Assembly: GCA_964657925.1 (NCBI GenBank)
Contig: CAZZWK010000020.1
Coordinates: 1,359-65,358, forward strand
DNA: 64,000 nucleotides
Origin: an uncultured Dictyobacter sp.
GTDB taxonomy: Bacteria; Chloroflexota; Ktedonobacteria; Ktedonobacterales; Ktedonobacteraceae
Direction of reading: 5' to 3'
The position numbers and the translations under genes were made by a program. Below are positions 11,027-61,859 of the stretch, one piece after another; the first letter of the stretch is position 1; each line of letters opens with the position of its first letter. The notes below the pieces were generated by a model. That model was not told the origin of the DNA. It was given only the letters and a program-made list of their open reading frames with translations, and did not search any database.

Positions 11027-11074
11027 CCTGGGTATGTTACTATGTCGTCATAACGACATAGTAACATACCCAGG
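11027..11074. promoter_or_regulatory. Perfect 21-bp-arm inverted repeat (6-nt spacer) upstream of the ABC operon; candidate operator or hairpin
   Basis: Arms cctgggtatgttactatgtcg / cgacatagtaacatacccagg flank tcataa. The centre contains gtcgtcataacgac, related to 592..605 and to gtcgtcatgatgtg at 11111..11124. Confidence 0.5.
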
Positions 11075-11114
11075 AAGAGATTGTCAAGCTTTTCACATCA
11101 TATTCAATATGTCG

Positions 11115-11546
11115 TCATGATGTGAACAGTCTGGTGTGAATGGGGTGACAACAGCGACGGAAGAGCAGGCGCATGGGCAAGACCTGCAACTGCTTGCGGC
11201 GGGTGCTAATGGCTCCTTTGGTCGGGATCTGCGCTTCGGCTTGGGGCCAGACGTACAAGAGGCCAGCCGCTATCGTTCGCAGGACCTCCACCACGTTGCA
11301 GGAGGGAAACAGGGAAAGGGCCATGATCAGGGAGATGATGGTGGGCATGTTAAGGGCACGTTCACGCTGTTCCCAGTTCTCACACTCCGAGAGCATGCAT
11401 CCGATCGTCTCGGCTGGATAGCACTCTTGCAAGGCATGCAGCACCAGATGATGGTTCAACTTGTCATCAGCGGGAATTTGGCGTAGTCTAAAGGACATAA
11501 GGAGGTTCCTTTCATATGTGGTTTGTTCATTGTCATTGTATTTCAT
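11115..11546 (-). pseudogene. Remnant of an IS4-family transposase (N-terminal domain only; DDE catalytic domain missing)
   Basis: 143-aa ORF. RERALNMPTIISLIMALSLFPSCNVVEVLRTIAAGL...KGAISTRRKQLQVLPMRLLFRRCC fits the IS4 transposase N-terminal domain pattern. The ORF stops before any DDE domain. Confidence 0.55.
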
Positions 11547-11582
11547 ATGATTGGCCTCCTTTCTCTTTATTTAAACAGCATT

Positions 11583-11669
11583 GTCCCCTTGCGGGCACGT
11601 CTCTACAGCGTGCCAGCAAGCGGCGGACATTCTGGAGAATATGTCCTAGACATGTCCGCGCCCACACGG
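11583..11669. repeat. Composite GC-rich palindromic repeat element (REP-like), one of a family seen at five or more sites in this window
   Basis: gtccccttgcgggcacgtctctac matches 16578..16601 at 21 of 24 positions. gcggacattctgg (11623..11635) equals the reverse complement of 44145..44157. tccgcgcccaca (11655..11666) is identical to 22205..22216. Nested hairpins are present, e.g. cttgcgggcacg / cgtgccagcaag. Confidence 0.6.
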
Positions 11670-11689
11670 TTGATAAAGGAATAAAAAGC

Positions 11690-12559
11690 ATGGATCAACG
11701 AATGCAAGGTGAAAAAGTGGTGCTCGTGACCGGTGCCGCGAGCGGCATAGGAGAAGCATGTGTGCTTGACCTGGCGAAGAGCGGATTCCACGTCTTCGCC
11801 GGGGTGCGCCGCCCCGCAGATGGGGTGGCGCTGGCGCAAAAAGCACAGGGTCATGTGAGTTGGCTCCTACTCGATATCACAGACCCCTGGTCGATTGACG
11901 CCGCGGTGCAGCAGATACAAGCAACCGTAGAGACTGGCAACAGTCTTGCTGGCATCGTCAATAATGCGGGTATAGGTGGCATTGGCCCACTGGAGTTTCT
12001 TCCGCCAGACGATCTGCGCCAACTCCTGGAGGTCAACGTCGTCGGTTCGCTGACCGTCACCCAGGCATTCCTCCCACTCCTACGTCACAGCCATGGACGC
12101 ATCATCACGATTGGCTCCATCAGCGGCTGTCTGGTACTCCCTTTCAGCGGCGGCTATAGCGTCTCAAAATTCGCGCTTGAGGCGCTCATCGAAGAGTTGC
12201 GCATAGAATTACGACCCTGGCATCTCTGCGTTTCCATCATCGATCCCGGCGGCATCACCACTCCCATGTGGAGCAAAGCGGTGGCGGCTGTCGACCAGTT
12301 GACGCAGACGCTCCCACCTCAGGCGAAAACCTACTACGCCCCGCTATGGCCGCGCCTGCGTCAACTCGCCACACGCTGGTCGACCCACGGCACCCCGCCC
12401 TCGCGCGTCAGCCACGCCGTCCTCCACGCCCTCACCGCTCCCCATCCCAAATACCGTTATTTTGTTGGCAGACGCGCCAACCATCTCATGCGCCTACTCG
12501 CAGCGCTCCCACAACCGGTCAGAGCCATGCTTATCGCCAGCCAATTTCCTCATATATAA
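11690..12559 (+). CDS. Short-chain dehydrogenase/reductase (SDR)
   Basis: The ORF track starts at 11516. ATG 11690 gives MDQRMQGEKVVLVTGAASGIGEAC (the TGxxxGIG cofactor motif). The catalytic YSVSK motif is present. Confidence 0.85.
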   Translation: MDQRMQGEKVVLVTGAASGIGEACVLDLAKSGFHVFAGVRRPADGVALAQKAQGHVSWLLLDITDPWSIDAAVQQIQATVETGNSLAGIVNNAGIGGIGPLEFLPPDDLRQLLEVNVVGSLTVTQAFLPLLRHSHGRIITIGSISGCLVLPFSGGYSVSKFALEALIEELRIELRPWHLCVSIIDPGGITTPMWSKAVAAVDQLTQTLPPQAKTYYAPLWPRLRQLATRWSTHGTPPSRVSHAVLHALTAPHPKYRYFVGRRANHLMRLLAALPQPVRAMLIASQFPHI

Positions 12560-13182
12560 TGAGTATGCAATGCCTGCCAGGCCGCCGTCGCCATTCCCTT
12601 TTCGGCAGTCAGAAGTTGTTCTTGGAGTTCCTGCTGGGAAGGCGCAAGATATGATCCATAGGGAGCAAGTATAAGACGAACCAGATACATCGTTGGACCA
12701 AGCCAAAGTGCCAGACATTGCTCAAGTGGGAAAGGCTGGATGATTTCATTCATCATATGGGGCTGCAACCACTCATGTAGTCGCTGATGAAAATCTCTTT
12801 CTGATGCTTTCTCCTGCTCATCGGCTATCTCAATGATCTCTACTTCACGACGATACAATAAATAATATGTTTCCTGCGGATGCTTAACCGCCCAATGAAG
12901 GTAGGCACGGACAAGAGCTTCAACTCCTTCCCGCGCCTCTTGATACTGAGAAATCTCCTGAAGCAAACTTTGATAGAAATTCAACTGCGTTTCTACATAG
13001 AGATTCGCAGCGAGATCAAGTTTATTTTTGAAGAGGTAGTAGAAGCTGCCAACGCTTATACCTGAACCATGTAAGATGTCTTCTACCTTCGTTGCCGCAA
13101 GACCACGCTCGACAAACAACTGCATAGCGGTTTCACAAAGTGTACGACGGGTCGCGGCGAGTAAATCACTTCGGATGCCCAT
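12550..13182 (-). CDS. TetR-family transcriptional regulator
   Basis: 210 aa. The N-terminal HTH reads TLCETAMQLFVERGLAATKVEDILHGSGISVGSFYYLFKNKLDL. It is divergent from the hydrolase gene. Confidence 0.85.
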   Translation of the reverse strand: MGIRSDLLAATRRTLCETAMQLFVERGLAATKVEDILHGSGISVGSFYYLFKNKLDLAANLYVETQLNFYQSLLQEISQYQEAREGVEALVRAYLHWAVKHPQETYYLLYRREVEIIEIADEQEKASERDFHQRLHEWLQPHMMNEIIQPFPLEQCLALWLGPTMYLVRLILAPYGSYLAPSQQELQEQLLTAEKGMATAAWQALHTHYI

Positions 13183-13292
13183 TGTTTCTCCTGATGATAT
13201 CGATGCTCCTCAGAGTGAGAAGACTCCTTGATACTATAGCATAAAAGCAACCACGCTTCTAGAAGTATCCTCTAAAAGATAATGAAAAAACC

Positions 13293-13351
13293 TTGACATC
13301 TCTTCGATCAATCCGTATACTTGTAATTAGTATCTAGAAGAAATTTCTAGA
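13293..13351 (+). promoter_or_regulatory. Sigma70-like promoter plus palindromic operator for the hydrolase gene
   Basis: TTGACA (13293..13298), a 17-nt spacer, then TATACT (13316..13321). The palindrome tctagaa-gaaat-ttctaga (13333..13351) lies just downstream. A related palindrome cttctagaag lies at 13256..13265. Confidence 0.55.
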
Positions 13352-13424
13352 CGTTTATTTACTTGAGAGGGTATCCTTCTCAAGGTTTCACGTTCATGCT
13401 TTACACTTGACGAGGAGGTCACAC

Positions 13425-14381
13425 ATGAATATCACACAGACAATGGATTCCGAACTGAAAGCAACGTATGAACAATTCCCAGCTTTCCCTGTCCCCAAGA
13501 ATGCGAGTGATTATGCGGCTTTTCGGAAAATAGCAGAGGAATCGTTTATGTTCCTTGATGGGGTGAAGAATGATCATGTGGTCATCGAAGATCGAATTGG
13601 ACCACATGCTCCTGGGGCGATAGACGTTCCTGTCCGTATCTACACGCCACGTTCTCGCACTGGTCTTCTTCCTGGCTTGCTGTGGATGCATGGGAGTGGC
13701 TTCACGACTGGAACGCCGAAAATGGATGATGGTGTGCTGACTCGTATCGTTGAGGAAGTCGGGTGCGTCGTGGTCTCGGTCGATTATCGGCTGGCCCCGG
13801 AGCACGCCTTTCCATCGGCCACTGACGATTGCTATGCAGCCCTCGTTTGGCTCGCTACTCATGCCCAGGAATTAGGAGTGAATCGTGAGCACCTCGCGAT
13901 AGCAGGCCAGAGTGCAGGCGGTGGTATTTGTGCCGCAGTCGGTCTCATGGCACGTGACCGTGGCGAGGTGAGCCTCTCCTTTCAGATGCCTCTCTATGCA
14001 TGTCTCGACGACCGACATGTCACCTCTTCCAGCCATGCGATAACGGACCCACGAACCTGGAACCGAGAGTTGTCATTAAAAGCATGGGAAGTGTATTTGG
14101 GAAACCATCGCGAAGGCGACATTTCTCCCTATGCAGCCCCCATTCGCGCCACTGATCTTGCGGGTCTGCCTCCAACCTATATGATGATCGGCACACTCGA
14201 TTTGATGCGCGATGAGAACATAGAATACGCCAACCGCTTGATGCAGGCGGGCGTCCCCACTGAGTTACATGTCTATCCAGGGGCTTCTCATGGTTTTGAA
14301 CTCATGGTACCAAATGCGAGTGTCAGCAAACGAGCTGCCGACGAGTATGTCTCGGCTCTCAAACGAGCACTCAATCCGTAA
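13425..14381 (+). CDS. Alpha/beta hydrolase, hormone-sensitive-lipase-type esterase
   Basis: The ORF track starts at TTG 13407. ATG 13425 is preceded by GAGGAGG. It has the HGSGF oxyanion motif, the GQSAGG nucleophile elbow and a C-terminal HGF. Confidence 0.85.
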   Translation: MNITQTMDSELKATYEQFPAFPVPKNASDYAAFRKIAEESFMFLDGVKNDHVVIEDRIGPHAPGAIDVPVRIYTPRSRTGLLPGLLWMHGSGFTTGTPKMDDGVLTRIVEEVGCVVVSVDYRLAPEHAFPSATDDCYAALVWLATHAQELGVNREHLAIAGQSAGGGICAAVGLMARDRGEVSLSFQMPLYACLDDRHVTSSSHAITDPRTWNRELSLKAWEVYLGNHREGDISPYAAPIRATDLAGLPPTYMMIGTLDLMRDENIEYANRLMQAGVPTELHVYPGASHGFELMVPNASVSKRAADEYVSALKRALNP

Positions 14382-14412
14382 TAACAGCAAAATAGGAAAG
14401 ATACGTATCTGC

Positions 14413-14477
14413 TCGATTGCAACTCCCCACGGTGCCTTGACTTGGCAAGTCAAGGCACCGTGAGGAGTTGCAATCGA
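14413..14477. terminator. Bidirectional terminator: 32-bp stem (one mismatch) between convergent genes
   Basis: The stem is tcgattgcaactccccacggtgccttgacttg / caagtcaaggcaccgtgaggagttgcaatcga around a single central g. It lies between the esterase stop (14381) and the YcaO gene stop (14519). Confidence 0.65.
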
Positions 14478-14518
14478 CTCGCTACTTCCACAATATAAGC
14501 GCACAGAGATGCCTGCAT

Positions 14519-16549
14519 CTACGGAAAAGGATGAGGGACCACAGCAGCGCTATCCGGCACAAAATCCGTTTTACGGAACCCGGCGGTCCTGGGCACGGTG
14601 CGCAAACGCGGCAGGCTTAAAGCACGGTCTCGCCCCCAACCAAAATCTATCGGCAAAAGTCCAGGCACGATAACACAGGCCGTCTTCAACCCGCTGCTAG
14701 CCTGCTCAGGAGCCGTCTGATCTACAACGATCACATCCATACCTAGTCGCTGCATATGCTCGATACAAAAGAGCAGATCATCACGCAAATCGTAGCTTCG
14801 CGGGTGCTGCTCGTACCAGTCCCGATACGCCTCCTCTAACACGCGTACCGCTTGACCTTGAAAGAGAAAATCGATACGATCGCCCATCTCCGGTAGTGCA
14901 TACAGCGTCGCATGATCGGTCAATGTCGTTACTTTGCTATAATCCTGAACCATTGCCCGCAAATCCTCGACACGACCCTCGATACGCGCCCCAACATTGG
15001 AAACATAGGACGCAACCTCGCACAAAGCTCCCTGCAATGCGTCTTCCGGGTCCATTCCGCTACCAGCGGCCACAATCAGGTTCCCCAGGCCAGCCTCCTT
15101 CCGACGGGCGATAGCAACCATAGAAGGAATGCACACATCCATACGCGTATCGAAAAGATACAGGTCGTATCCCTGTCGCTCTATACGCTCAAGGGTGAAC
15201 AGGGTTTCGCGCCGCCTGGAACTGCGCGGGTCAATGCGCCCCGGTGCCAGTTGCGCGTACCACGTCAATAGAAAAGCATCGCGTTCGATCAGTTCCAACA
15301 ATCCATACAGTATCGCCTCCTCCATACAACTGCCCGTCGCACAACCATTGGAAGAATCTTGCACAAACTTTGCAGTATTGTTGCGCTGGCTCATATAATA
15401 CACCAGTTGCTCGGGCACCAGCAGGGCACGCTGGCCGCCAAATGAATACCCCCATACCCACGTCATCGCGCGCTCTGGGTCGAATGGCTGAAACATAGCC
15501 GTGTTTTTACGGTAAAATTCCTCAGGATACATACCACACGTGCGAGGGTCCAGGGCATCTGGTGCCAGGCGTTCGTAGCTATCGACAACATGCACGTGTT
15601 TCCCACGTGGGACGATACCACCATAACGCTCGATACCTTCCAGCAAACCCGCGTATAAACTCTGCTGATAACTATTGCCATGTCCACTCCACCAGACTTC
15701 GTAGACAACGGCATCGTTCCTTGCGCCAAACTGACCGGTAACCGGAGCTGTCAGCGTATTGTTCCATTCTGATAGCGCCACGCCACCAAGCATACCTGCA
15801 ACAGGATTGATCAACGCGGACAACGACAACGCATAGTCAGTAGCTCTGCTCAAACGATAGGCAGAGGGGTCCTTTTTCGGACGACTTTGTAAACACAGTA
15901 GCGCCCCTTGCGCGCTATCTACAAACGGTGTCGCACACATCGGGCAGGTTGAATCTCGCAACAGGTGATACCGGCTCACCCGCAACGACTCGCAGTTCAG
16001 CACATAAAAGCATCCTTGTTCCAACACAGGCGTGGTAGCAAGCAGATGAAAGATCCAGGTCAACAAAGAGCCAACCGCGTCCAGCACAAAAGACGGCATC
16101 TGCACACCGGTAGCGGGAACTAGCATCTGCCGTTTCCCGATAAAAGCTGTCTGCACTACCTGCGGGCGCGTGCTAAACCAGCGCCGTTCCAGGCAACAGG
16201 GGCACGCTGCATTAGCCTGGCCTGGATCGAAAAATGGTCCAAAGATGATTTGTGAACGATCGAGCCTGATCGGGTAGACAGGACAATCCTTCCAGTAACG
16301 CGTAGCCGCGTCCCCTTGTGGGCGCGCAGGGTCATCTCCCCGCATCGCATCTTTTGTCCCCAACACTCCTATATCAATCCATACTTGCTCCACCGGAAAA
16401 GCGAGTGCAGGTTTCTCCAGCTCAAAGAGCAATTGTTCCAGGTAGTGGTGGAGTAGATACGACTTCTCGTCTAGCGGCGAGTCGGAAGGTGTTACCACAC
16501 ATTGTATCCTATATTGCCCCAACACACGAGGAGACTCAACAGAAATCAT
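14519..16549 (-). CDS. Fused E1-like (cyclodehydratase C-type) / YcaO azoline-forming cyclodehydratase
   Basis: 676 aa. The N-terminal part has paired Cys motifs CPCCLERRW and CPMC, as in E1-like docking domains. The YcaO-type segments are GNSYQQSLYAGLLEGIERYGG, SSNGCATGSCMEEAILYGLLELIERDAF and GSGMDPEDALQGALCEV. The protein ends in PHPFP (nt 14522..14536), the PxPxP C-terminal motif of azoline-forming YcaOs. Confidence 0.85.
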   Translation of the reverse strand: MISVESPRVLGQYRIQCVVTPSDSPLDEKSYLLHHYLEQLLFELEKPALAFPVEQVWIDIGVLGTKDAMRGDDPARPQGDAATRYWKDCPVYPIRLDRSQIIFGPFFDPGQANAACPCCLERRWFSTRPQVVQTAFIGKRQMLVPATGVQMPSFVLDAVGSLLTWIFHLLATTPVLEQGCFYVLNCESLRVSRYHLLRDSTCPMCATPFVDSAQGALLCLQSRPKKDPSAYRLSRATDYALSLSALINPVAGMLGGVALSEWNNTLTAPVTGQFGARNDAVVYEVWWSGHGNSYQQSLYAGLLEGIERYGGIVPRGKHVHVVDSYERLAPDALDPRTCGMYPEEFYRKNTAMFQPFDPERAMTWVWGYSFGGQRALLVPEQLVYYMSQRNNTAKFVQDSSNGCATGSCMEEAILYGLLELIERDAFLLTWYAQLAPGRIDPRSSRRRETLFTLERIERQGYDLYLFDTRMDVCIPSMVAIARRKEAGLGNLIVAAGSGMDPEDALQGALCEVASYVSNVGARIEGRVEDLRAMVQDYSKVTTLTDHATLYALPEMGDRIDFLFQGQAVRVLEEAYRDWYEQHPRSYDLRDDLLFCIEHMQRLGMDVIVVDQTAPEQASSGLKTACVIVPGLLPIDFGWGRDRALSLPRLRTVPRTAGFRKTDFVPDSAAVVPHPFP

Positions 16550-16647
16550 AGCTCCACTCCTTACGACGCGTAACCGCGTCCCCTTGCGAGCGCATCTCTA
16601 CTTGCAACACGCCTACGCGTTCTCTGAACGCTGACGCTCGTCCTCGT

Positions 16648-17694
16648 TTAAACTGTCTCAAAATCCACCACACCTTTTGCAGCCATATTCTCCTCTAACG
16701 CCCTTCGCATCAAATATGCCAGATAGATCTCATCTGGAATCATTGTTCCCAGACGATTGTTGGTCATATGAATATAGCTTGATAGCAGCATTGTGTAGAC
16801 AAACGCTCGGTCATCAAAGGCCCTTGGCTGATAGTGCGTCAAACTGTTCTGAAAAATCAGTTTTCGCTCGCTGACAAGCGGGTCCAACCTTGCCTTGAGT
16901 TCACGCACATGCGCGGCCCATTCTTGCTCAAAGAAATTCAGCCTTCCCTGCCCTTCCTGTACGCTCGTCTTCTCTAAATGCTGCACGCGCCGCCGCAAGC
17001 TCGGTGCCATCCTCTCGAACTTTTTCTCACATTGAGCTGGGGTCGCGACGGCAGCTTCAGTATAGCGCTCCTTCCAAAATCGTTCGTAGCGGGCCAGAAA
17101 GGTGATCACCGCCTGCTCATCTTCCAGCAGGGCGAAACACAGGGGCAACGCGAGTTGCATGGAGAGACCAAGCATGATCGAACGCACATGCACGTTCGCG
17201 CTACCAATCAATTTGAAAATGAGGTCGCTCGATTTCTCAAAATGCCATTCGGCCACCTCCACGCCGTGGAGACCCCCATATCGCTCGTATTCGGCCTCGT
17301 AAGCAATAAAGTGCAGCGAGTTGTTGGGCCGAACAGGCATAGTATCGCGCTCTCCATACACCTGTCTCCATTTCTCCTGGCTGTATTCCGTGATGAACAT
17401 GCGTTTATAAAAATCCGCCAGGCGCTCACCCTCGGAGGTATAAAGCGATGGGTGCTGCTTCAGATACGCGGCTATGCTTTCTTGAGCCAATGCCTTTACT
17501 TCTTCCGCGACACCCGCCTCAGGCAGCAGTCTGAGCCGTATATGCGGCCCCTCTTGCCAGTATCTGATGAAAAAATAACGTTGAATGAGTTTTCGCCTGC
17601 GACAGACATCAATCAAGGGCGCAATGGCTTCTAGCAGCAACGGCTCCGGACTGCCAGCATAGAAAATATGCATACTGATCCACTGTTCACTCAT
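16648..17694 (-). CDS. Thiopeptide-type/LanB C-terminal-like (SpaB_C) protein: glutamate-elimination enzyme or [4+2] pyridine synthase
   Basis: MSEQWISMHIFYAGSPEPLLLEAIAPLIDVCRRRKLIQRYFFIRYWQEGPHIRLRL and the C-terminal SYIHMTNNRLG are hallmark patterns of this family. ATG 17694 overlaps the upstream stop as ATGAGTGA. The ORF track start at 17730 is less likely. Confidence 0.8.
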   Translation of the reverse strand: MSEQWISMHIFYAGSPEPLLLEAIAPLIDVCRRRKLIQRYFFIRYWQEGPHIRLRLLPEAGVAEEVKALAQESIAAYLKQHPSLYTSEGERLADFYKRMFITEYSQEKWRQVYGERDTMPVRPNNSLHFIAYEAEYERYGGLHGVEVAEWHFEKSSDLIFKLIGSANVHVRSIMLGLSMQLALPLCFALLEDEQAVITFLARYERFWKERYTEAAVATPAQCEKKFERMAPSLRRRVQHLEKTSVQEGQGRLNFFEQEWAAHVRELKARLDPLVSERKLIFQNSLTHYQPRAFDDRAFVYTMLLSSYIHMTNNRLGTMIPDEIYLAYLMRRALEENMAAKGVVDFETV

Positions 17695-20492: not shown

Positions 20493-22139
20493 CTAAACAA
20501 ATTGAGCATTGAAACTGGCATTATTTTTGAGGCCATAGCCGATGGGGAGAAAAAGCATCGAACGCTCGTCCATACCATCCAGGCCAAGGGCTGTGTTCAA
20601 GGCAAGATTGTCGAATCCGAGCGCGGCCCCACAATTGAAACCGAGAGCGCTCGATGCCAGATAAGCACTTTGCGCCACCAGTCCCACCTCGGCATTCAAA
20701 ATTCTATAACCCCGATTTCCATAAGCGGCGAGCATGCGATGCGGTTTTCCCACAATCACCAGCAGAGCCGCCACCTCGCCCAGGTTATAGTTGCGCAGAA
20801 AGTAGTGCTGCTGGAGAAAAAGAGAAAAATCCTGACGAGACACCTCCCACAAACAGTGTCGCGTGGAGTCATACGCGTAGGCACCGCGTTGGAGACCCTC
20901 GATATTGTTTACAAATATCATCAAACGTGTGAAAGCAGGCGTTTCATCCTGATCGCTGCGATACGAGCGACAGGCCGACACAAAGGCAAGCATCGTCGCG
21001 AAATGCGCTAATTGCAGGGGGCAACAACTTGAAAAACGCCCAAACCCCGATTGCCGCCGCCGAAAAATGTCCAGCAGGTCGTCTTCAAGCAACGCCTGCA
21101 CCGGCTCAGGAAGCGCGATAGCCCCCCTGAATTCACCTGACTCGCCGGGCTGACTAAACCAGTCGCAACTCGCTTCGCGCACGACCTTGGCATCAGGAAG
21201 CGGCTCTTCTGAAATTAGAGAGGAGAAATGCACCGCTTCGACGGTAGGGAACCGCGTCACACGTTTGGAGCGCTGGAACGCTGGTCTTGTAACGTATGGC
21301 TCGCTCTTCCCTGGCAACAATTCCCGTTGCCCAGAAGATTCGTCGTGTTCGCCGCAAGCGGGAAGGGGAATCACCACAAAAGCGCTCTCAGACGCCGTTT
21401 CAAGGCCGAGCAGCCGATTCAATTCTTCGTCGCAATACCAGAAGAGAAAAGGCAGGTCAATACCTAAACCCGTACCCAATAGGCGTAAAGATCCCAAAAG
21501 TGCCCCTACATCCTGGGTAACCACGTGGTAAGCATACGAATGATACTTGAAGGCATTCTTCCAGAAGTTGAGCGATACGACAAGAAACTGATCGGTCGCC
21601 AGCGCGGTAGGATGATTGCGTACGGCGACACGAATGCGTCGCGTAAAGTCACCAACCAATAAACGTGCCAGCGCGTGATGGGCCGGATCATAGTGATACA
21701 CACCCGCTCGCAAAGATCCACCTTGCCCACACACCCAGAAAAGTTCCGTGGGATACCTTCCCCCACCCGAGGCTGTACCACGTCCAAAGATGGTCTGAGC
21801 ATAACGCGTCCGCTCACGCTCGTCACGATTCCAATTCACATCAAAACGACGATTGAGCAGGCCGTGCGCGAAAAGCAATAGCGTGGAAAGATCCGCGAGA
21901 TTCATCCCAGCGGAGACCGCTAGTGGGGAACTGATGCGATCGAGTATATGCGCCATTGAGGCAAGCTTCCGCGGAACACAGTCCGGCAAGGGGAAACGCT
22001 CAACCTGTCGGTACACTTTATAACGCGAGGGTTGATCTTTCCAATCAGGAACAAAATTTTTCGGCTCCATCGGCTCGACACCGTGACGAAAAACAGCCTC
22101 AATATAGCGCGTACAAATATCCGTTTGTCGATTGAGCAT
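20493..22139 (-). CDS. SagB/McbC-type FMN-dependent azoline dehydrogenase
   Basis: DWKDQPSRYKVY is an N-terminal SagB-type signature. NFWKNAFKYHSYAYHVVTQDVGALLGSL carries the Lys-Tyr motif. The C-terminal nitroreductase fold reads NRGYRILNAEVGLVAQSAYLASSALGFNCGAALGFDN. I prefer ATG 22139 (SD ggaag upstream) because the ORF track start 22193 lies inside a hairpin. Confidence 0.8.
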   Translation of the reverse strand: MLNRQTDICTRYIEAVFRHGVEPMEPKNFVPDWKDQPSRYKVYRQVERFPLPDCVPRKLASMAHILDRISSPLAVSAGMNLADLSTLLLFAHGLLNRRFDVNWNRDERERTRYAQTIFGRGTASGGGRYPTELFWVCGQGGSLRAGVYHYDPAHHALARLLVGDFTRRIRVAVRNHPTALATDQFLVVSLNFWKNAFKYHSYAYHVVTQDVGALLGSLRLLGTGLGIDLPFLFWYCDEELNRLLGLETASESAFVVIPLPACGEHDESSGQRELLPGKSEPYVTRPAFQRSKRVTRFPTVEAVHFSSLISEEPLPDAKVVREASCDWFSQPGESGEFRGAIALPEPVQALLEDDLLDIFRRRQSGFGRFSSCCPLQLAHFATMLAFVSACRSYRSDQDETPAFTRLMIFVNNIEGLQRGAYAYDSTRHCLWEVSRQDFSLFLQQHYFLRNYNLGEVAALLVIVGKPHRMLAAYGNRGYRILNAEVGLVAQSAYLASSALGFNCGAALGFDNLALNTALGLDGMDERSMLFLPIGYGLKNNASFNAQFV

Positions 22140-22158
22140 AGTCTCTTCCTGCTCGCAC

Positions 22159-22201
22159 GATGACTTTGCCTCGCACAGGCGCGCGCAAGGCAAAAGTCAT
22201 C
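22159..22201 (-). promoter_or_regulatory. Intercistronic stem-loop between the precursor gene and the dehydrogenase gene
   Basis: gatgactttgcc (22159..22170) pairs with ggcaaaagtcatc (22189..22201) with a one-base bulge, and a few further inner pairs follow. It lies about 40 nt after the precursor stop and 19 nt before ATG 22139. Confidence 0.5.
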
Positions 22202-22240
22202 TACTCCGCGCCCACAAGGGAACGCGCCTACGCGATCAAA

Positions 22241-22444
22241 CTAAATCGTGCTACAACTACTGCTGCAACAACTTGTCGTGAAACATGTGTTACAGGATTG
22301 CACCGGCAAAGCCCCGTCGGCCTGCTCAGAAGTGATCAAATCTTCAATTTCAAATGTCTCTATGTCGAGCTGATGCAGTTCTTCTTGCAGGTTGCTAAAT
22401 GGACTCATTAGCTTCGGCATATGTTGTTGTTCCTGAATTGGCAT
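22241..22444 (-). CDS. RiPP precursor peptide (thiopeptide-like): leader plus Cys/Ser/Thr-rich core SCNTCFTTSCCSSSCSTI
   Basis: 67 aa: MPIQEQQHMPKLMSPFSNLQEELHQLDIETFEIEDLITSEQADGALPVQ-SCNTCFTTSCCSSSCSTI. A strong SD (aaggagga) lies 5-6 nt upstream of ATG 22444. In the last 18 residues, 15 are Ser/Thr/Cys. The gene sits between modification-enzyme genes. Confidence 0.85.
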   Translation of the reverse strand: MPIQEQQHMPKLMSPFSNLQEELHQLDIETFEIEDLITSEQADGALPVQSCNTCFTTSCCSSSCSTI

Positions 22445-22498
22445 CCTTTTCCTCCTTTCTCTCCTGATGATTTAAATACCAACCTCCGCCTCTATCAG

Positions 22499-24823
22499 TT
22501 ACGCGGACCTCGTCAGCAAAACAGTTCCACTCATCATCGTCCCCGCATTCCAGATATCAGCGGTGGTAGTATTCACAAAAAGAATGTCACGCCCCTGCTT
22601 ATAGAGATACTCTTCCAGATGCTGCACATCCACAAACGTTTTCTGAAAACTGCGCGTGGACGCAAGGGGCGAGACAAAATCGAACGTAGGGACAAATTCT
22701 GGAAGAAACAAATCTTTATCTATATGATGCTTATTCCCAGGCCCAACCACATTCCCATCTCTAGCGGCAAACGCGTAGGGCAAACCATGCGTTTGCTCTA
22801 CGCGTTCGCCCAGAGCTTCAGTAAGGTCGCCCCGCTTTTCATAAAGCAGCGTTTGCAACTTCCCTATCAACTGGAGTAATGCATTTCTGGCCGCATGAAT
22901 AGAAGAAAGCCCATAGCCGATTCCGCAAGGCTGCTGCACACTTTCGCCATTTGTGCAGACCGCCAGCATAAGAGGAAGTGGCGAAGCGGACAAAACCTCA
23001 AAAAGTGTGTACTGGTACTCGAAATGCCGTAGGCTGCGCAACAAAAAAGTCAGGTCCGCATCAATATCTTCCAGTGTTTCTGGGTCGATCACAGCCACCG
23101 CGATACGTCCCTGGAGCGCTTCTTGTATATGCTCATAAGCCAGGGCGGAGGTAAGACCCGTAGCCAGCATCTCCCCAAAACTCGTGTGCACTCCTGAGCC
23201 TGCTGAAGTCCTTTCAAAAACACAGCGCCGGTTGAGATAGCTAGTGGGGTAGACGGCTGCGGCAGGGACGTAACACACGCGTTGCCTGGAGAACGAAAAC
23301 GCTGGCAACCACTCACAGCGCGTGTCCTCCATAAAAGCAGCCACGCCCGACCAGCCAGCAAGTTGTTGTGCCACGATAGCATCTTTACCCTGTCGCACCA
23401 GCTCGCTACGCTTTGCCAACAGCATCGTGCGAACGTCGGGTAGACTGTTTGTATACTGCCCGATCGCCTCGCGTAAAACGGCCATACGCGCATCAAGCAG
23501 CGTCCCGCTCTCAAAGGCCATCACCACAGGGGAGGTCGAAAGCACCGGAGAGGCGACCGTCAGTTGGCTGACTTTGAGAGGAAGCTGGATCAATGTATCG
23601 TCCTGGTAATCACTCAACAAACCAGTATGCGCTTGCATGAGCACATCTGCGCGACGCAGGACATCGGCATCTGATACCCTATCTCGCTTCCCTTCGACAA
23701 CTTCGAGCAAGATTTGCGCAGCGCGCTCAGGACTACCCTGAGAACACAGCGGACAGAGCGGATACTGCATCAGGCTTTCGTGATAGGACTCCATCGTCTC
23801 CGTGTCCTGGCAGATAATCCCTGCATCCAGTTCCGAGGGGAGATGTCCTGCAAAGAGTTTGAAAAGCTCAAAACCGACGGCGTTACCGACATGCCTGGCG
23901 ATGGGAGTAAAAAATGTGGTATCTGCGCTGGTCAACGCGTTATCAAGCACAAAGGATTTCCATAGCGTGGTTCCCTGCTCTGCGGACATGCGCGCCGCAA
24001 GACGCACCTGCGCGCATAACCAGCACGGACCCCCCGGTTTTACGATTGGTCCAAGCACAGCCTGCCCTGCGCAAAAAACTACCGGTAGAAACTGGCATCC
24101 TTTACGCATACAGTTCTTTTGCAACGCGAGCACCTCCGTGAACGCACTCGTGTCCGAGCAGTAAACAACCGTATCGTAATCAGCTGATCTCTGAAAAGAT
24201 GGGGCGTCACGCGGATCAAAACCAATCTTCGACACACATACCTCGACCCCGGATTGGCATATGTTGTCCACCTCAGCCTCTAGTTGCCGTAGAGCAGTAT
24301 CCCCTTCATCCAATAATGCCAGGGAAAGGTCTCTGATCCCATTGCGCATCAAAGAAATCCCTAAAGCGACAAAAGCCTCGCCCGCACCAACAAGCAGCAC
24401 ACGACTCTGCCTGAACGCCTTGAATCTCTCCACCGGTCGGTCGGCATAGTGATCGATGAGCTCAATCTGCGCTCGAAAACGGCGCAGCACCTCGTCATCC
24501 AATAATCCGGCAGCCTCAGGGATGCATTGCTTGAGCACGCCCCTTTGCAACAACGTATCGATCAGACGTAGAACCGTCTCCCGTTGCGTTGCTCCTAGCC
24601 CCTCGCATAACTCATTTACCGTGTGCTCCCCATTCATATGTGGGCTTAAAGTGGCAAGCAATTGATACACGGATCTCCCTTTTAGTGAAAACACCGCATC
24701 ATCGCTTTGCAAGAAAACACCATCCCTGCTCTGCAGAAAAATTGAGTTCTGCTTGAGCTTTGGACGCACTTCAGCAAGGTTATCCATCATCCACTCCTGT
24801 CGGCGGGCGGCCTCTCTCATCAT
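22499..24823 (-). CDS. Ocin-ThiF-like (E1-like) RiPP maturation protein with an N-terminal RRE-type winged helix and a C-terminal degenerate YcaO-like region
   Basis: 774 aa. GRSVYQLLATLSPHMNGEHTVNELCEGLGATQRETVLRLIDTLLQRGVLK looks like a RiPP recognition element. VLLVGAGEAFVALGISL is a Rossmann-like glycine motif. The C-terminal half (ARMAVLREAIGQYTN, ERTSAGSGVHTSFGEMLATGLTSALAYEHIQ, GYGLSSIHAARNALLQL) parallels YcaO blocks with altered key residues, and there is no PxPxP tail. The start may be ATG 24790 or 24787, after an AGGAG. Confidence 0.65.
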   Translation of the reverse strand: MMREAARRQEWMMDNLAEVRPKLKQNSIFLQSRDGVFLQSDDAVFSLKGRSVYQLLATLSPHMNGEHTVNELCEGLGATQRETVLRLIDTLLQRGVLKQCIPEAAGLLDDEVLRRFRAQIELIDHYADRPVERFKAFRQSRVLLVGAGEAFVALGISLMRNGIRDLSLALLDEGDTALRQLEAEVDNICQSGVEVCVSKIGFDPRDAPSFQRSADYDTVVYCSDTSAFTEVLALQKNCMRKGCQFLPVVFCAGQAVLGPIVKPGGPCWLCAQVRLAARMSAEQGTTLWKSFVLDNALTSADTTFFTPIARHVGNAVGFELFKLFAGHLPSELDAGIICQDTETMESYHESLMQYPLCPLCSQGSPERAAQILLEVVEGKRDRVSDADVLRRADVLMQAHTGLLSDYQDDTLIQLPLKVSQLTVASPVLSTSPVVMAFESGTLLDARMAVLREAIGQYTNSLPDVRTMLLAKRSELVRQGKDAIVAQQLAGWSGVAAFMEDTRCEWLPAFSFSRQRVCYVPAAAVYPTSYLNRRCVFERTSAGSGVHTSFGEMLATGLTSALAYEHIQEALQGRIAVAVIDPETLEDIDADLTFLLRSLRHFEYQYTLFEVLSASPLPLMLAVCTNGESVQQPCGIGYGLSSIHAARNALLQLIGKLQTLLYEKRGDLTEALGERVEQTHGLPYAFAARDGNVVGPGNKHHIDKDLFLPEFVPTFDFVSPLASTRSFQKTFVDVQHLEEYLYKQGRDILFVNTTTADIWNAGTMMSGTVLLTRSA

Positions 24824-27773: not shown

Positions 27774-29999
27774 CTACAGATACCGGCTGGTCAGGGATTC
27801 TTTGGCGTCGAGCAGATCGCGAGGGGTGCCTTCGAAGATGACCATACCGCCCTTGTGGCCGCCTTCCGGACCCATATCAATGATCCAGTCGGCGTTGCGA
27901 ATCACATCGAGGTGATGCTCAATCACAATCACGGTGTTCCCGCCATCGACCAGCCGATTCATGATGGTGAGCAGGCGACCGATATCCGACAGATGCAGGC
28001 CGGTGGTGGGCTCGTCCATGACGTAGATGTTGCTCTGCTTGTGGAGTTCGCTGGCGAGTTTGATGCGCTGGCACTCGCCACCTGAGAGGGTGCTCAAGGG
28101 CTGGCCCAGGGTCAGGTAGTCCAGACCCACGTCGCTCAACGCCTGCAGCTTTGGCTGCACTGCTTTGATCTTCAAAAACGCCAATGCCTGCTGAACGCTC
28201 ATATTCAAAACATCAGCAATGGATTTCCCGTTCAATGGGTAGGCCAGTACCTCGTCCTTAAAGCGTTTCCCACCGCACACTTCACAAGGAAGCTTGACCC
28301 CCTCAAGGAAACCGAGATCGGTGTAGATTACACCAAGTCCCTGACAGTTAGGACAGGCACCCTTTGAGTTAAAACTAAACAGGCCAGCATCGACATTGTT
28401 GGCTGCTGCAAAAGCCTTGCGCACATCATCCATGATGCCGCTATAGGTCGCGGGATTGGAACGACTGGAAGTGCTCAGGGATGATTGATCAATCACCACC
28501 GCCTCCTGGTGCTGACCCAGAAAGGCTTCATTGATTAACGAGCTTTTGCCTGAACCAGCCACGCCAGTGATGACCGTCAGCACGCCAGTGGGAATATTCA
28601 CACTGACATCCCGCAAATTATTCGCTGTAGCGTGGACAATTGGCAGAGCGCCGGTCGTCTGGCGAAAACTCTCCTTAAGCGGCCTCTTACGCAGTAAATG
28701 GTTGCCGGTCAGCGTATCGGCCTGCAGCAGACCGCTGAAATCACCCTCATAGACAACCTTGCCTCCTTCGCTCCCGGCATATGGTCCCATATCGACGACG
28801 TAATCGGCCCGCTGAATCACATCAGGATCGTGCTCGACGACGATGACTGTGTTCCCTTTGTCGCGCAACTTTTCCAGCAGTTCGTTCAGACGATGGACAT
28901 CGCGCGGGTGAAGTCCGATGCTCGGCTCGTCAAAGATGTACATGACATCGACCAGGCTACCGTTAAGATGCTTGACCATTTTGACCCGCTGCGATTCACC
29001 CCCAGACAGGGTATCGGTGGATCGATCCAGGCTGAGATACTCCAGGCCAATCTCCACCAGATGGCGCAGCCGTTCGGTCAACGTGCGAACAATTGGCGCC
29101 GCCGGTTCTGTGATATCCTTGACGACCTCTAAAAGCTCATCAATCTGCATCGCTGCCATATCGGCAATAGTGTAGCCATTGATTTTGCAGCTCAGCGCTG
29201 CTTGATTGAGCCGGGCACCCTTGCAGAGCGGACAGGGGCCGAGCTTCAAAAAAGGCTCGACCTTTTGTCGTATGCGAGGCGAGAGCGTCTGGATATCGCG
29301 CGCAACAAACCTACGATTGAACTTGTACACCAGACCCTCATAGGTGTTGTACGGCAGATCGGTACGTTTGCGCGGCTCGCTGTAGAGCAGCAGATCCCGT
29401 TCCTCTGCTGTATAATCGGCTATCTTCTTGTCGTTGTCGAAGTAGCCAGAACGGGCATAAAGATCGCTCTCCCAGCCAGCCAGTCCCGGGGCGATGACAG
29501 CGCCCTCGTTCAACGATTTTGTTGTATCGATCAGCGCTTCCGAGGTAATGCCGACCTTACGGCCCAGGCCATTGCACTCCAGGCACATGCCCTGTGGATC
29601 ATTGAAGGAAAAGGCATTGGCAAGACCTACATACGGCTTTCCGATGCGTGAAAAGAGCAAGCGCAACACTGGCGCGATGTCAGTGACCGTGCCCACGGTC
29701 GATTGCGATCCGCCCCCCAGGCGTTTCTGGTCAACAATCACCGCCATGCTCAGGTTCTCGATCACATCGGCGTCTGGTTGGGGATAGCGCGGCAGAAAAT
29801 TGCGTACAAACATACTAAAATTCTCAAACAGGAGCCGTTGCGCTTCGTTGGCAATGGTATCAAACACCATTGAGGACTTCCCTGAGCCAGATACGCCGGT
29901 AAAAATGATGATTTTGCGCTTGGGCAGCCTCAGCGAGACACCCCTCAAATTGTTCTCGCGCGCACCCCGAATCTCAATGTATTCCTGAGACATACTCAT
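27774..29999 (-). CDS. UvrA-like ATPase paralog (short form, two ABC modules)
   Basis: 741 aa. The N-terminus reads IEIRGARENNLRGVSLRLPKRKIIIFTGVSGSGKSSMVFDTI. The second Walker A is TGVAGSGKSSL. Signature-type LSGGE motifs (LSGGESQR, LSGGECQR) and zinc-module Cys pairs (CPLCKG, CPNCQG, CEVCGG) are present. Confidence 0.85.
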   Translation of the reverse strand: MSMSQEYIEIRGARENNLRGVSLRLPKRKIIIFTGVSGSGKSSMVFDTIANEAQRLLFENFSMFVRNFLPRYPQPDADVIENLSMAVIVDQKRLGGGSQSTVGTVTDIAPVLRLLFSRIGKPYVGLANAFSFNDPQGMCLECNGLGRKVGITSEALIDTTKSLNEGAVIAPGLAGWESDLYARSGYFDNDKKIADYTAEERDLLLYSEPRKRTDLPYNTYEGLVYKFNRRFVARDIQTLSPRIRQKVEPFLKLGPCPLCKGARLNQAALSCKINGYTIADMAAMQIDELLEVVKDITEPAAPIVRTLTERLRHLVEIGLEYLSLDRSTDTLSGGESQRVKMVKHLNGSLVDVMYIFDEPSIGLHPRDVHRLNELLEKLRDKGNTVIVVEHDPDVIQRADYVVDMGPYAGSEGGKVVYEGDFSGLLQADTLTGNHLLRKRPLKESFRQTTGALPIVHATANNLRDVSVNIPTGVLTVITGVAGSGKSSLINEAFLGQHQEAVVIDQSSLSTSSRSNPATYSGIMDDVRKAFAAANNVDAGLFSFNSKGACPNCQGLGVIYTDLGFLEGVKLPCEVCGGKRFKDEVLAYPLNGKSIADVLNMSVQQALAFLKIKAVQPKLQALSDVGLDYLTLGQPLSTLSGGECQRIKLASELHKQSNIYVMDEPTTGLHLSDIGRLLTIMNRLVDGGNTVIVIEHHLDVIRNADWIIDMGPEGGHKGGMVIFEGTPRDLLDAKESLTSRYL

Positions 30000-56851: not shown

Positions 56852-56956
56852 GAATATGACAGAGGAAAGTCATACTAATTTCTAGATGATTGAATTTCTT
56901 CCCTATCTGTGCTACCTTATAGCGAAAGCTAAACGTTAGAGGGAAGACATAGAATC

Positions 56957-57145
56957 ATGGCTATTAATTTAGAAGATCTCATCTGGATCGTCGATGCAGA
57001 GCAACGCTATAACCGGTCACGCGAGTGGTTCTTGAAACAGATCAAACTCAAAAAACTGCACAAAACAAAAATCGCGGGCGACCGCAAAGTCTACTTGCTA
57101 CGCGGCGAGATCGAGCAATTGCTCCAACCACGCATGCTCGACTGA
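56957..57145 (+). CDS. Small helix-turn-helix (excisionase/MerR-like) DNA-binding protein, tentative
   Basis: 62 aa: MAINLEDLIWIVDAEQRYNRSREWFLKQIKLKKLHKTKIAGDRKVYLLRGEIEQLL. The pattern resembles the excisionase-type HTH_17 fold. It lies between convergent lanthipeptide operons. Confidence 0.4.
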   Translation: MAINLEDLIWIVDAEQRYNRSREWFLKQIKLKKLHKTKIAGDRKVYLLRGEIEQLLQPRMLD

Positions 57146-57185
57146 AACACAGTCTACCCGCGGGAGAGCTGATACTCTCCCGCCA

Positions 57186-58760: not shown

Positions 58761-58771
58761 GCCCTACCCCC

Positions 58772-61804: not shown

Positions 61805-61859
61805 GTACCTCGCTCCTCCTTAATATACTCGATAGACTTGTATACTCGCCAGCTCTTAA

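What the first reader, a model, noticed from the sequence alone, without database searches (positions are those of the whole stretch)
22241..22444. Precursor peptide with thiopeptide-like core SCNTCFTTSCCSSSCSTI
Directly visible: a strong SD (aaggagga) precedes ATG 22444. The leader contains the acidic/hydrophobic stretch LHQLDIETFEIEDLITSEQ. The last 18 residues (nt 22244..22297) contain 15 Ser/Thr/Cys.

From memory, thiocillin, thiomuracin and lactazole leaders carry similar (L/I)D(L/I)xxF/L-acidic motifs. The GE2270/thiomuracin cores begin SCNC and carry a CCS motif whose Ser pairs with Ser1 in pyridine formation. Here a CCS motif sits at residues 10-12. By analogy, Ser1/Ser12 would give a 32-membered macrocycle with a 6-residue tail. 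This is pure inference. If no pyridine synthase exists, the product would instead be a heavily modified linear polyazole/Dha peptide.
Basis: partly seen in the sequence, partly recalled or inferred. Interest (0 to 1): 0.8.

Follow-up and report, generated by a model that had tools for sequence, protein, structure and literature searches.

The report
Thiopeptide-like precursor without a pyridine synthase
This is a real, strongly conserved gene for a small peptide that neighbouring enzymes convert into a heavily modified natural product, but the enzyme that closes the ring in true thiopeptide antibiotics is missing, so the product is most likely a linear azole- and dehydroalanine-rich peptide.

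Summary
The ORF at 22444-22241 (-) encodes a 67 aa peptide behind a strong SD, and its last 18 residues (SCNTCFTTSCCSSSCSTI) are the most Cys/Ser/Thr-rich 18-mer in the window. Its only database homologue keeps 17 core residues identical despite 11 synonymous codon changes.

The gene lies in a six-gene minus-strand operon (24823-14519): an RRE/E1-like/degenerate-YcaO protein, the precursor, a SagB dehydrogenase, a LanB-N glutamylase, one SpaB_C protein and an E1-YcaO cyclodehydratase.

The thiopeptide macrocycle reading fails on the defining feature.
- The only SpaB_C protein keeps all NisB-type glutamate-elimination residues.
- Its family profile scores eliminases (TclL, LazF-like) far above pyridine synthases (TclM, LazC-like).
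- No second SpaB_C gene exists in the window or in the 80 related loci.

The family occurs in 310 species genomes (Ktedonobacteria, Actinomycetota), and I found no characterised product. Caveat: the eliminase's predicted fold is closer to solved pyridine synthases than to LanB elimination domains.

The parts
22499..24823 (-). 774 aa leader-binding scaffold protein. It has an N-terminal RRE, an E1/ThiF-like domain and a C-terminal degenerate YcaO-like domain.
   Evidence: NCBIfam TIGR03693 ocin_ThiF_like (E 2.9e-39) and TIGR03882; Pfam YcaO 65.9 bits. Residues 22-98 match the solved PbtF RRE (8t19, E 4e-4). hhalign to the canonical YcaO family gives probability 99.4 at 19% identity. The LEGxER, SNGCAxG and LELxERDAF motifs and the PxPxP tail are lost. 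Present in 75 of the 80 related loci plus the window.
22450..22457 (-). Shine-Dalgarno sequence AAGGAGGA, with GGAGG 6 nt upstream of the ATG
   Evidence: Read directly from the sequence.
22241..22444 (-). Precursor peptide gene (67 aa plus stop). The inferred leader is residues 1-49 (22444-22298) and the inferred core is residues 50-67 (22297-22244).
   Evidence: The leader/core boundary is inferred from where the block identical to homologue P0002 begins.
22159..22201 (-). Stable RNA stem-loop between the precursor and the dehydrogenase gene, with no U tract. It may act as an mRNA stabiliser or attenuator (inference).
   Evidence: strand folding on 22135-22245(-): MFE -48.1 kcal/mol, z = -3.2 against shuffles; the hairpin is kept in the centroid structure.
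20493..22139 (-). SagB-type FMN dehydrogenase (azoline to azole). The gene-call start gives 548 aa; the longest ORF starts at 22193.
   Evidence: TIGR03605 160.9 bits and Pfam Nitroreductase. The PDB match 3eo7 covers two nitroreductase halves. No SpaB_C/eliminase domain was found. Gene call taken from the identical contig L002.
17687..20431 (-). LanB N-terminal-type Glu-tRNA-dependent glutamylase (914 aa by gene call; the ORF extends to 20461)
   Evidence: Pfam Lant_dehydr_N, E 1.5e-44. Closest solved structures are TbtB 6ec7 (E 6e-45) and the goadsporin protein 9jhq (E 4e-17).
16648..17694 (-). Stand-alone glutamate eliminase (348 aa, SpaB_C fold). It overlaps the glutamylase gene by 8 nt and is the only SpaB_C protein in the window.
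   Evidence: Pfam Lant_dehydr_C and TIGR03891. R53, R55, E135, R138 and H309 are invariant in the 36-sequence family and align with NisB R784, R786, E823, R826 and H961 (residue roles from PMC9486935). Family profile scores: TclL 103 bits against TclM -1.2; LazF-like 63.5 against LazC-like 20.5.
14519..16549 (-). Fused E1-like/YcaO cyclodehydratase (676 aa), the catalytically competent azoline-forming enzyme
   Evidence: TIGR03604 330.6 bits (cutoff 219), TIGR03882, Pfam YcaO 283 bits. PDB matches LynD, TruD and MusD, E 1e-32 to 1e-35. The C-terminus is PHPFP, and the YcaO motifs and two CxxC pairs are conserved.

Best explanation
The ORF is the precursor of a RiPP made by a compact six-gene operon of thiopeptide ancestry that lacks the ring-forming pyridine synthase.

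Proposed pathway, with the basis of each step:
1. The thiopeptide-type leader (ELHQLDIETFEIED) is bound by the RRE of the 774 aa scaffold protein. The domains are shown; the binding is inferred.
2. The 676 aa E1-YcaO enzyme cyclodehydrates the five Cys and probably some Ser/Thr to azolines, using ATP. The SagB dehydrogenase then oxidises them to azoles. The enzyme families are shown; the sites are inferred.
3. The TbtB-like LanB-N enzyme glutamylates remaining Ser/Thr from Glu-tRNA(Glu). The 348 aa eliminase removes the glutamate to give Dha/Dhb. The catalytic residues are shown; the activity is inferred.
4. No [4+2] enzyme is present, so the core stays linear. The leader must be removed by a protease encoded elsewhere.

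The product would be a linear polyazole/dehydroamino-acid peptide, closest in chemistry to goadsporin. The producer is an uncultured Ktedonobacteria-type bacterium.
For: The precursor is real and under selection: strong SD, a TIGR03892 hit, the most extreme Cys/Ser/Thr stretch in the window, and a core with 11 synonymous and 0 non-synonymous codon differences from its only homologue.

The enzyme set is established.

The single SpaB_C protein is an eliminase:
- The five NisB-type elimination residues are invariant in a 36-member family spanning 40-79% identity (residue roles from PMC9486935).
- Where TbtD, PbtD and TsrL align, they lack these residues.
- The family profile scores eliminases at 64-103 bits and pyridine synthases at -1.2 and 20.5 bits, tested on a micrococcin cluster and a lactazole-type cluster.
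- Its gene overlaps the glutamylase gene by 8 nt.

There is no second SpaB_C. A profile search of all six frames and Pfam scans of all large ORFs found none, and none appeared in the 80 related loci.

Family precursors have cores of about 18 to 35 residues, often 2-4 per cluster. That variation does not fit a fixed macrocycle.

Cox et al. 2015 (PMC4603692) drew the same non-macrocyclic inference for clusters with two D proteins, split dehydratases and no [4+2] enzyme. Goadsporin is the precedent for the chemistry (PMC5303826).

Taxonomy rests.
Against: - The predicted eliminase structure (pLDDT 91) is closer to the solved pyridine synthases PbtD and TbtD (query TM-score 0.70-0.73) and TsrL (0.65) than to the NisB, MibB and MadB elimination domains (0.50-0.57). 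NCBIfam's pyridine-synthase model also scores 103 bits, though its cutoff is 325. No stand-alone eliminase has a solved structure, so this may reflect only shared split-type ancestry, but I could not test that.
- This window lacks the roughly 419 aa membrane protein with a faint M50-like match that is present in 79 of 80 related loci. A linear product therefore has no obvious leader protease in the cluster, whereas a thiopeptide would not need one.
- Only 64 kb of the genome was examined, so a cyclase encoded elsewhere cannot be excluded.
- No product, transcript or enzyme activity has been observed. The modification sites are inference.
Confidence: 0.75

Rival explanations
1. It is a true thiopeptide. 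Two Dha residues (for example Ser1 with Ser12, or Ser1 with Ser14) undergo aza-[4+2] cyclisation to a pyridine macrocycle. The catalyst would be either a cyclase encoded outside the window or the 348 aa protein acting as both eliminase and cyclase.
For: The precursor passes TIGR03892. The leader motif and SC-N..CCS core resemble thiopeptide precursors (from memory; compare TclE). The RRE resembles PbtF and the glutamylase resembles TbtB. The 348 aa protein's fold is nearest to PbtD and TbtD. No leader protease lies in the cluster.
Against: The only SpaB_C protein carries the full elimination catalytic set and scores as an eliminase rather than a cyclase. No second SpaB_C is present in the 64 kb window or in the 80 related loci across two phyla. 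The lactazole-type fusion is excluded. Core lengths in the family range from about 18 to 35 residues. I know of no precedent for a bifunctional eliminase/cyclase.
Confidence: 0.07
2. The peptide is modified as proposed, but the final product is not simply linear. Further steps may occur that cluster content does not predict, such as non-enzymatic or in-trans Cys-to-Dha thioether formation or tailoring by neighbouring genes (for example the alpha/beta hydrolase at 13407-14381). Alternatively only a subset of residues is modified, giving an azole-only or partly dehydrated product.
For: The core has 15 modifiable residues and only the enzyme families are known. An alpha/beta hydrolase and a TetR regulator flank the operon. 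A related MAG cluster carries a third YcaO gene and a BAAT/hydrolase-type gene, and the A. oris plasmid cluster also carries a third YcaO gene.
Against: No LanC-type cyclase or other tailoring enzyme lies in the operon. The flanking genes are on the opposite strand and are not among the gene families conserved across the related loci. The Cys residues are the preferred YcaO substrates, so free thiols are unlikely to remain (inference from the goadsporin and thiopeptide literature, PMC5303826).
Confidence: 0.12
3. The cluster is a silent or decaying remnant. It has lost the conserved downstream membrane protein and been rearranged, and it makes no mature product.
For: The membrane protein with a faint M50-like match, present in 79 of 80 related loci, is absent. 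The E1-YcaO gene sits in an unusual 3' position.
Against: All six ORFs are intact with the expected lengths and catalytic motifs. The core is under strict purifying selection relative to a diverged homologue, 0 non-synonymous against 11 synonymous differences. The same precursor sequence occurs on contigs from three further sequencing runs.
Confidence: 0.05

Closest known systems
Goadsporin (Streptomyces sp. TP-A0584; GodA, D, E, F, G) and the related spongiicolazolicins
   Same: A linear RiPP that combines azoles with dehydroalanines. Azoles come from a fused cyclodehydratase and an FMN dehydrogenase. Dha comes from a split LanB, a stand-alone glutamylase plus a stand-alone eliminase. There is no [4+2] enzyme (PMC5303826, PMC10676384).
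   Different: This cluster adds a conserved 774 aa RRE/E1-like/degenerate-YcaO protein and uses a thiopeptide-type leader. Its glutamylase is much closer to TbtB than to the goadsporin protein (E 6e-45 against 4e-17). It has no GNAT acetyltransferase and no peptidase-ABC exporter. The core is far richer in Cys/Ser/Thr, with 11 contiguous modifiable residues. The host is Chloroflexota rather than Streptomyces. The spongiicolazolicin gene cluster could not be examined.
Thiopeptides (thiomuracin/GE2270, micrococcin/thiocillin, lactazole)
   Same: Leader motif and RRE type (PbtF-like), a TbtB-like glutamylase, the stand-alone SpaB_C fold, and a precursor that passes TIGR03892. Public annotation labels family members as thiopeptide-type or thiazolylpeptide-type.
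   Different: The class-defining pyridine/dehydropiperidine synthase (TbtD, PbtD, TclM, LazC) is absent. The sole SpaB_C protein is the TclL/LazF-N-type eliminase. Core lengths in the family vary from about 18 to 35 residues.
'Coryneazolisin type 1/2' clusters predicted by Cox et al. 2015 (PMC4603692)
   Same: Two YcaO (D) proteins, one of them fused to a C protein, plus lanthipeptide-like split dehydratases and no [4+2] enzyme. The authors predicted a non-macrocyclic product. The precursor core is almost wholly Cys/Ser/Thr with an Ile.
   Different: That family was described only bioinformatically, in pathogenic Corynebacterium. Orthology with the present family was not tested. Here both YcaO-type proteins carry N-terminal fusions, and one YcaO-like domain appears catalytically dead.

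Membership tests
Thiopeptides | A dedicated [4+2] aza-cycloaddition enzyme (pyridine/dehydropiperidine synthase of the TbtD, PbtD, TclM or LazC type) in the cluster | tested here: not met
   The window holds only one SpaB_C protein. It carries the eliminase residues and scores with eliminases, not cyclases. None was found in the 80 related loci.
Thiopeptides | Precursor with a thiopeptide-type leader and a Ser/Cys-rich core | tested here: met
   TIGR03892 scores 25.8 bits against a cutoff of 25, a narrow pass. Pfam PF19409 gives no hit for this peptide and a weak hit for homologue P0002.
Thiopeptides | Azole-forming YcaO with an F-protein RRE, an FMN dehydrogenase and a split LanB dehydratase | tested here: met
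Thiopeptides | Six-membered nitrogen heterocycle closing a macrocycle in the product | not testable with these tools
   This needs MS/NMR of the product. The genetic evidence argues against it.
Lactazole-type thiopeptides | Eliminase domain fused to the N-terminus of the dehydrogenase (LazF), with the stand-alone SpaB_C acting as the pyridine synthase (LazC) | tested here: not met
   The SagB protein has no PF14028 hit or family-profile hit and is filled by two nitroreductase halves. In a genuine laz-type cluster (L091), the query matches the LazF-like N-terminus (63.5 bits), not the LazC-like protein (20.5 bits).
Goadsporin-type linear azole/Dha peptides (LAPs with a split LanB) | YcaO cyclodehydratase plus FMN dehydrogenase | tested here: met
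   TIGR03604 scores 330.6 bits, the C-terminus is PHPFP, and TIGR03605 scores 160.9 bits.
Goadsporin-type linear azole/Dha peptides (LAPs with a split LanB) | Separate glutamylation and glutamate-elimination proteins, with no macrocyclase | tested here: met
Goadsporin-type linear azole/Dha peptides (LAPs with a split LanB) | Linear mature product containing azoles and Dha/Dhb | not testable with these tools
   This needs expression and MS/MS. The unmodified core has a monoisotopic mass of 1833.6348 Da. Each azole removes 20.03 Da and each dehydration removes 18.01 Da.
Goadsporin-type linear azole/Dha peptides (LAPs with a split LanB) | Orthology of the enzymes to GodD, GodE, GodF and GodG | tested here: inconclusive
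   The glutamylase matches the goadsporin protein 9jhq only at E 4e-17, against 6e-45 for TbtB.
Coryneazolisin-type predicted TOMMs (Cox 2015) | Two D proteins (one fused to a C protein), split lanthipeptide-like dehydratases and no [4+2] enzyme | tested here: met
   The architecture matches the published description. Sequence orthology to the Corynebacterium clusters was not tested.

The most novel reading that the evidence does not exclude
The 348 aa SpaB_C protein has a predicted fold closer to the solved pyridine synthases than to the LanB elimination domains. It could be bifunctional, both eliminating glutamate and catalysing the aza-[4+2] cyclisation. Alternatively it could work with a cyclase encoded elsewhere in the genome. 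Either way, this minimal six-gene operon would make a pyridine-macrocyclic thiopeptide in Chloroflexota, for example a 32-membered ring from Ser1/Ser12 or an unprecedented 38-membered ring from Ser1/Ser14.
Probability: 0.05. Interest if true: 0.85.

Novelty: new variant of a known kind. Interest (0 to 1): 0.45.

Why it matters
- Automatic annotation calls this cluster type "thiopeptide" (NCBI product names seen here). The analysis shows it belongs to a large family, found in 310 species genomes in Actinomycetota and Ktedonobacteria, with no characterised product that I could find. The family has thiopeptide-type recognition and dehydration enzymes but no ring-forming enzyme. Genome-mining counts of thiopeptides that rest on precursor or SpaB_C hits alone would therefore be inflated.
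- The cores contain long uninterrupted runs of modifiable residues: 11 in this peptide and up to about 30 in relatives. The products may be contiguous polyazole/dehydro peptides beyond those so far described.
- The conserved RRE/E1-like/dead-YcaO fusion protein suggests that a pseudo-enzyme scaffold contributes to azole installation.
- The window's version is a compact six-gene, one-precursor operon from an uncultured Ktedonobacteria-type organism, which suits synthetic-gene expression.

Tried and rejected
- Dehydrazoles (PMC10676384) were considered and rejected, because they use a LanM-type DUF4135 dehydratase rather than a split LanB.
- The lactazole arrangement was rejected.
- Structure comparison does not separate eliminase from cyclase. 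All SpaB_C proteins share the fold, and no stand-alone eliminase has a solved structure.
- The primary NisB and TbtD/PbtD papers could not be retrieved. The NisB residue roles were taken from PMC9486935 instead.
- The spongiicolazolicin paper and gene cluster are not in the library, and Streptomyces spongiicola was not among the 80 loci returned. Its relation to this family is therefore untested.
- Literature searches for the core string found nothing. Searches for later goadsporin-citing work found no characterisation of this architecture. The Ktedonobacteria genome surveys only count automatically labelled "thiopeptide" clusters.
- The apparent extra SpaB_C members in the locus clustering were alternative-frame ORFs over the LanB-N gene in high-GC genomes, not paralogues.
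- The consensus promoter and terminator scan gave nothing above the shuffle expectation.
- A second Cys/Ser/Thr-rich stretch at 57923-57988(-) is, by my frame arithmetic, out of frame with the FAD-binding ORF it overlaps. I treated it as chance.

Full report
**Observation**

AAGGAGGA lies at 22457-22450, with GGAGG 6 nt before the ATG. The product is MPIQEQQHMPKLMSPFSNLQEELHQLDIETFEIEDLITSEQADGALPVQSCNTCFTTSCCSSSCSTI. The last 18 residues hold 5 Cys, 6 Ser and 4 Thr.

This composition is not a chance feature of the window. Of 73,237 stop-free 18-residue windows in all six frames, only two reach 15 Cys/Ser/Thr, and both are this stretch. The leader motif occurs nowhere else, so there is a single precursor gene. 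NCBIfam TIGR03892, the thiazolylpeptide-type bacteriocin precursor model, is passed narrowly at 25.8 bits against a cutoff of 25.

**Selection on the peptide**

A search of 5.8 billion proteins found only the peptide itself and one homologue, P0002, on a 1.8 kb metagenome contig. P0002 has the same 17 core residues, SCNTCFTTSCCSSSCST, followed by NSVS instead of I. A codon-level comparison gives:

| Region | Identical codons | Synonymous differences | Non-synonymous differences |
|---|---|---|---|
| Shared core (17 residues) | 6 | 11 | 0 |
| Leader (49 residues) | 16 | 13 | 20 |

The enzyme encoded next to it is only 58% identical. The core is therefore translated and under strict purifying selection. 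The same precursor sequence occurs on contigs from three further sequencing runs.

**Gene context**

The precursor is the second gene of a compact minus-strand operon:

| Coordinates (-) | Product |
|---|---|
| 24823-22499 | 774 aa ocin_ThiF-like/E1-like protein with a weak YcaO domain |
| 22444-22241 | Precursor peptide |
| 22139-20493 | SagB dehydrogenase |
| 20431-17687 | LanB-N glutamylase |
| 17694-16648 | SpaB_C protein (8 nt overlap with the glutamylase gene) |
| 16549-14519 | Fused E1-YcaO cyclodehydratase |

A stable hairpin at 22201-22159 separates the precursor from the enzyme genes (z = -3.2). The flanking genes are unrelated or lie on the opposite strand.

**Is the single SpaB_C protein a pyridine synthase or an eliminase?**

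Thiopeptide clusters carry two SpaB_C-fold functions, a glutamate eliminase and the [4+2] pyridine synthase. Only one is present here, so its identity decides the interpretation. The first tests were ambiguous. The pyridine-synthase model NF045556 scored 103 bits, far below its 325-bit cutoff. phmmer against the PDB hit 7cww, TbtD and PbtD only weakly.

I then aligned 36 family members at 40-79% identity and searched the PDB with the profile. The family's invariant motifs are PHIRLRL, EYERYGG and YIHMTNNRLG. They align with FFLRYTDPKPHIRLRI, YDQEVERYGG and IHVHNNRL of NisB, and with the equivalent motifs of MibB. Counting positions in those alignments (my arithmetic), this window's R53, R55, E135, R138 and H309 correspond to NisB R784, R786, E823, R826 and H961. 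PMC9486935 describes these as the γ-carboxylate-binding arginines, the Glu conserved in all class I glutamate lyases, the Arg that activates the α-proton, and the catalytic His base (the paper does not give the His residue number, and H961 is from my memory of the NisB work).

The pyridine synthases lack these residues where they align:
- TbtD has PHLRIYV.
- PbtD has HLELW.
- 7cww (TsrE, deposited as TsrL) has DWLGG and NWHLYRLG.

Direct comparison with eliminase and cyclase pairs from real clusters gives the same answer:

| Source | Protein | Role | Family-profile score (bits) |
|---|---|---|---|
| Micrococcin plasmid pBac115 | TclL position | eliminase | 103 (E 5e-33) |
| Micrococcin plasmid pBac115 | TclM position | pyridine synthase | -1.2 |
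| Lactazole-type Streptomyces plasmid cluster (core SWGSCSCQGSSSCAQPQ...) | LazF-like fusion | eliminase domain | 63.5 |
| Lactazole-type Streptomyces plasmid cluster | LazC-like | pyridine synthase | 20.5 |

The Tcl roles come from my memory of the published micrococcin pathway. In the lactazole-type cluster, the tblastn match of this window's protein falls in the N-terminal eliminase part of the LazF-like protein. The E135, R/K138, H309, N313 and R314 columns are filled only in the eliminases.

The lactazole arrangement, where the eliminase is fused to the dehydrogenase and the stand-alone SpaB_C is the cyclase (PMC7210931), is excluded here. The SagB protein has no SpaB_C signal and is accounted for by two nitroreductase halves. 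A maximum-sensitivity profile search of all 448 six-frame segments of the window found only this one protein.

**Counter-evidence**

The AlphaFold model is confident (pLDDT 91.3). Its nearest solved folds are PbtD and TbtD (query TM-score 0.70-0.73) and TsrL (0.65), ahead of the MibB, NisB and MadB elimination domains (0.50-0.57). No stand-alone eliminase has been solved. This may therefore show only that split eliminases and cyclases form one structural lineage, but I could not test that. It is the main reason a bifunctional or otherwise unusual role keeps a small probability.

**The family**

The eliminase family has more than 1000 database members and relatives in 310 species-representative genomes. 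These are chiefly Micromonospora, Streptomyces, Kribbella and other Actinomycetota, plus Ktedonobacteria. The best match is only 55% identical, in Ktedonosporobacter rubrisoli.

Clustering the ORFs of 80 loci plus the window gave these conserved plus-strand gene families (each count except the membrane protein's includes the window):

| Conserved gene | Loci |
|---|---|
| ThiF/YcaO-like protein, about 723 aa | 75 |
| E1-YcaO, about 660 aa | 75 |
| SagB | 76 |
| LanB-N | 80 |
| Eliminase | 81 |
| Membrane protein, about 419 aa, faint M50-like match | 79 |

No locus has a second SpaB_C. The window differs in two ways. It lacks the membrane protein, and its E1-YcaO gene sits at the 3' end of the operon.

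Precursors across the family share the (E/D)TFE(I/V)x(D/E) leader motif. Their cores run from about 18 to 35 residues and are almost wholly Cys/Ser/Thr, for example SSSCSCSSCCSCSTSSCCSTSTSTSSCG. There are often 2-4 precursor genes per cluster. An Actinomyces oris plasmid has the same architecture, with four precursors annotated as 'thiazolylpeptide-type bacteriocin'.

**The two YcaO-type proteins**

The 676 aa protein is a canonical cyclodehydratase. It resembles LynD, TruD and MusD. It ends in PHPFP, as do 74 of 76 family members, and it keeps the LEGxER, SNGCAxG and LELxERDAF motifs and two CxxC pairs. I recall the PxPxP C-terminus as a hallmark of azoline-forming YcaOs.

The 774 aa protein begins with an RRE like that of the thiopeptide F-protein PbtF. 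Its YcaO-like domain is homologous to the canonical one (hhalign probability 99.4) but has lost those motifs and the Pro-rich tail. I read it as a leader-binding scaffold rather than a second catalyst.

**Comparison with known systems**

Goadsporin and the spongiicolazolicins are the known non-thiopeptide RiPPs that combine azoles with Dha made by a split LanB (PMC10676384, PMC5303826). Cox et al. 2015 predicted uncharacterised 'coryneazolisin' clusters with two D proteins, split dehydratases and no [4+2] enzyme, and inferred non-macrocyclic products.

The present cluster follows that logic, but its parts are of thiopeptide lineage. TbtB is the closest solved glutamylase (E 6e-45, against 4e-17 for the goadsporin protein). 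The core string appears in no searchable paper. I found no characterised product for this architecture.

**Origin**

A neighbouring threonine-synthase-like gene has its named relatives in Ktedonobacteraceae and Chloroflexota MAGs at 70-73% identity. This agrees with the eliminase hits. The window comes from an uncultured Ktedonobacteria-type organism.

**Verdict**

The precursor is real and selected, and the resemblance to thiopeptides is genuine at the level of the leader and the enzyme lineage. The predicted pyridine macrocycle lacks its enzyme. The most likely product is a linear polyazole/Dha(Dhb) peptide. That makes this a new variant of the goadsporin-type kind, belonging to a widespread family whose members public annotation labels thiopeptide-type and for which I found no characterised product.

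Noticed in passing
window 54113-63959: A second RiPP locus. It holds a 912 aa RamC_N + kinase + LanC-like protein (54113-56851, +) and a 699 aa kinase + LanC-like protein (61860-63959, -, near the window end), which are class III/IV lanthipeptide synthetase types. It also holds an ABC exporter with a C-terminal cyclic-nucleotide-binding domain (58772-61804, -) and an FAD_binding_4 oxidoreductase (57186-58760, -). I did not search for a precursor.
   Followed up: no
window 27774-29999 (-): A 741 aa soluble protein with ABC ATPase domains and no detected membrane domain, about 3 kb upstream of the operon. It could be an ABC-F-type ribosome-protection or resistance factor, but I did not test that.
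   Followed up: no
window 44249-47314 (-): An unusual 1021 aa fusion of three FHA domains with an ABC ATPase and an ABC-2 membrane domain.
   Followed up: no
window 39536-40780 (+): A bacterial thaumatin-family protein fused to a CBM56 carbohydrate-binding module.
   Followed up: no
L005/L010 (Ktedonosporobacter rubrisoli CP035758), locus 11062-13297: The conserved downstream membrane protein (faint M50-like match, HELAHG motif) appears split into a 297 aa ORF and a separate 115 aa ORF, whereas other loci have a single protein of about 420 aa. This may be a frameshift or a disruption.
   Followed up: partly
L092 (Anoxybacillus amylolyticus plasmid pDSM15939_1), 1299-15223: Another cluster with YcaO, SagB and LanB-N genes and a single eliminase-type SpaB_C (78.6 bits to the family profile). 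It also has a PqqD-family protein, a CAAX protease and two Cys/Ser/Thr/Gly/Ala-rich precursors, one annotated 'thiocillin family RiPP'. It may be a further linear azole/Dha system labelled as a thiopeptide type.
   Followed up: partly
L006 (Ktedonobacteraceae MAG) 12389-15828 and L090 (Actinomyces oris plasmid) 15456-17243: Some relatives carry a third YcaO gene. The MAG also carries a BAAT/dienelactone-hydrolase-type gene downstream of the core set. This suggests extra tailoring in some members of the family.
   Followed up: no
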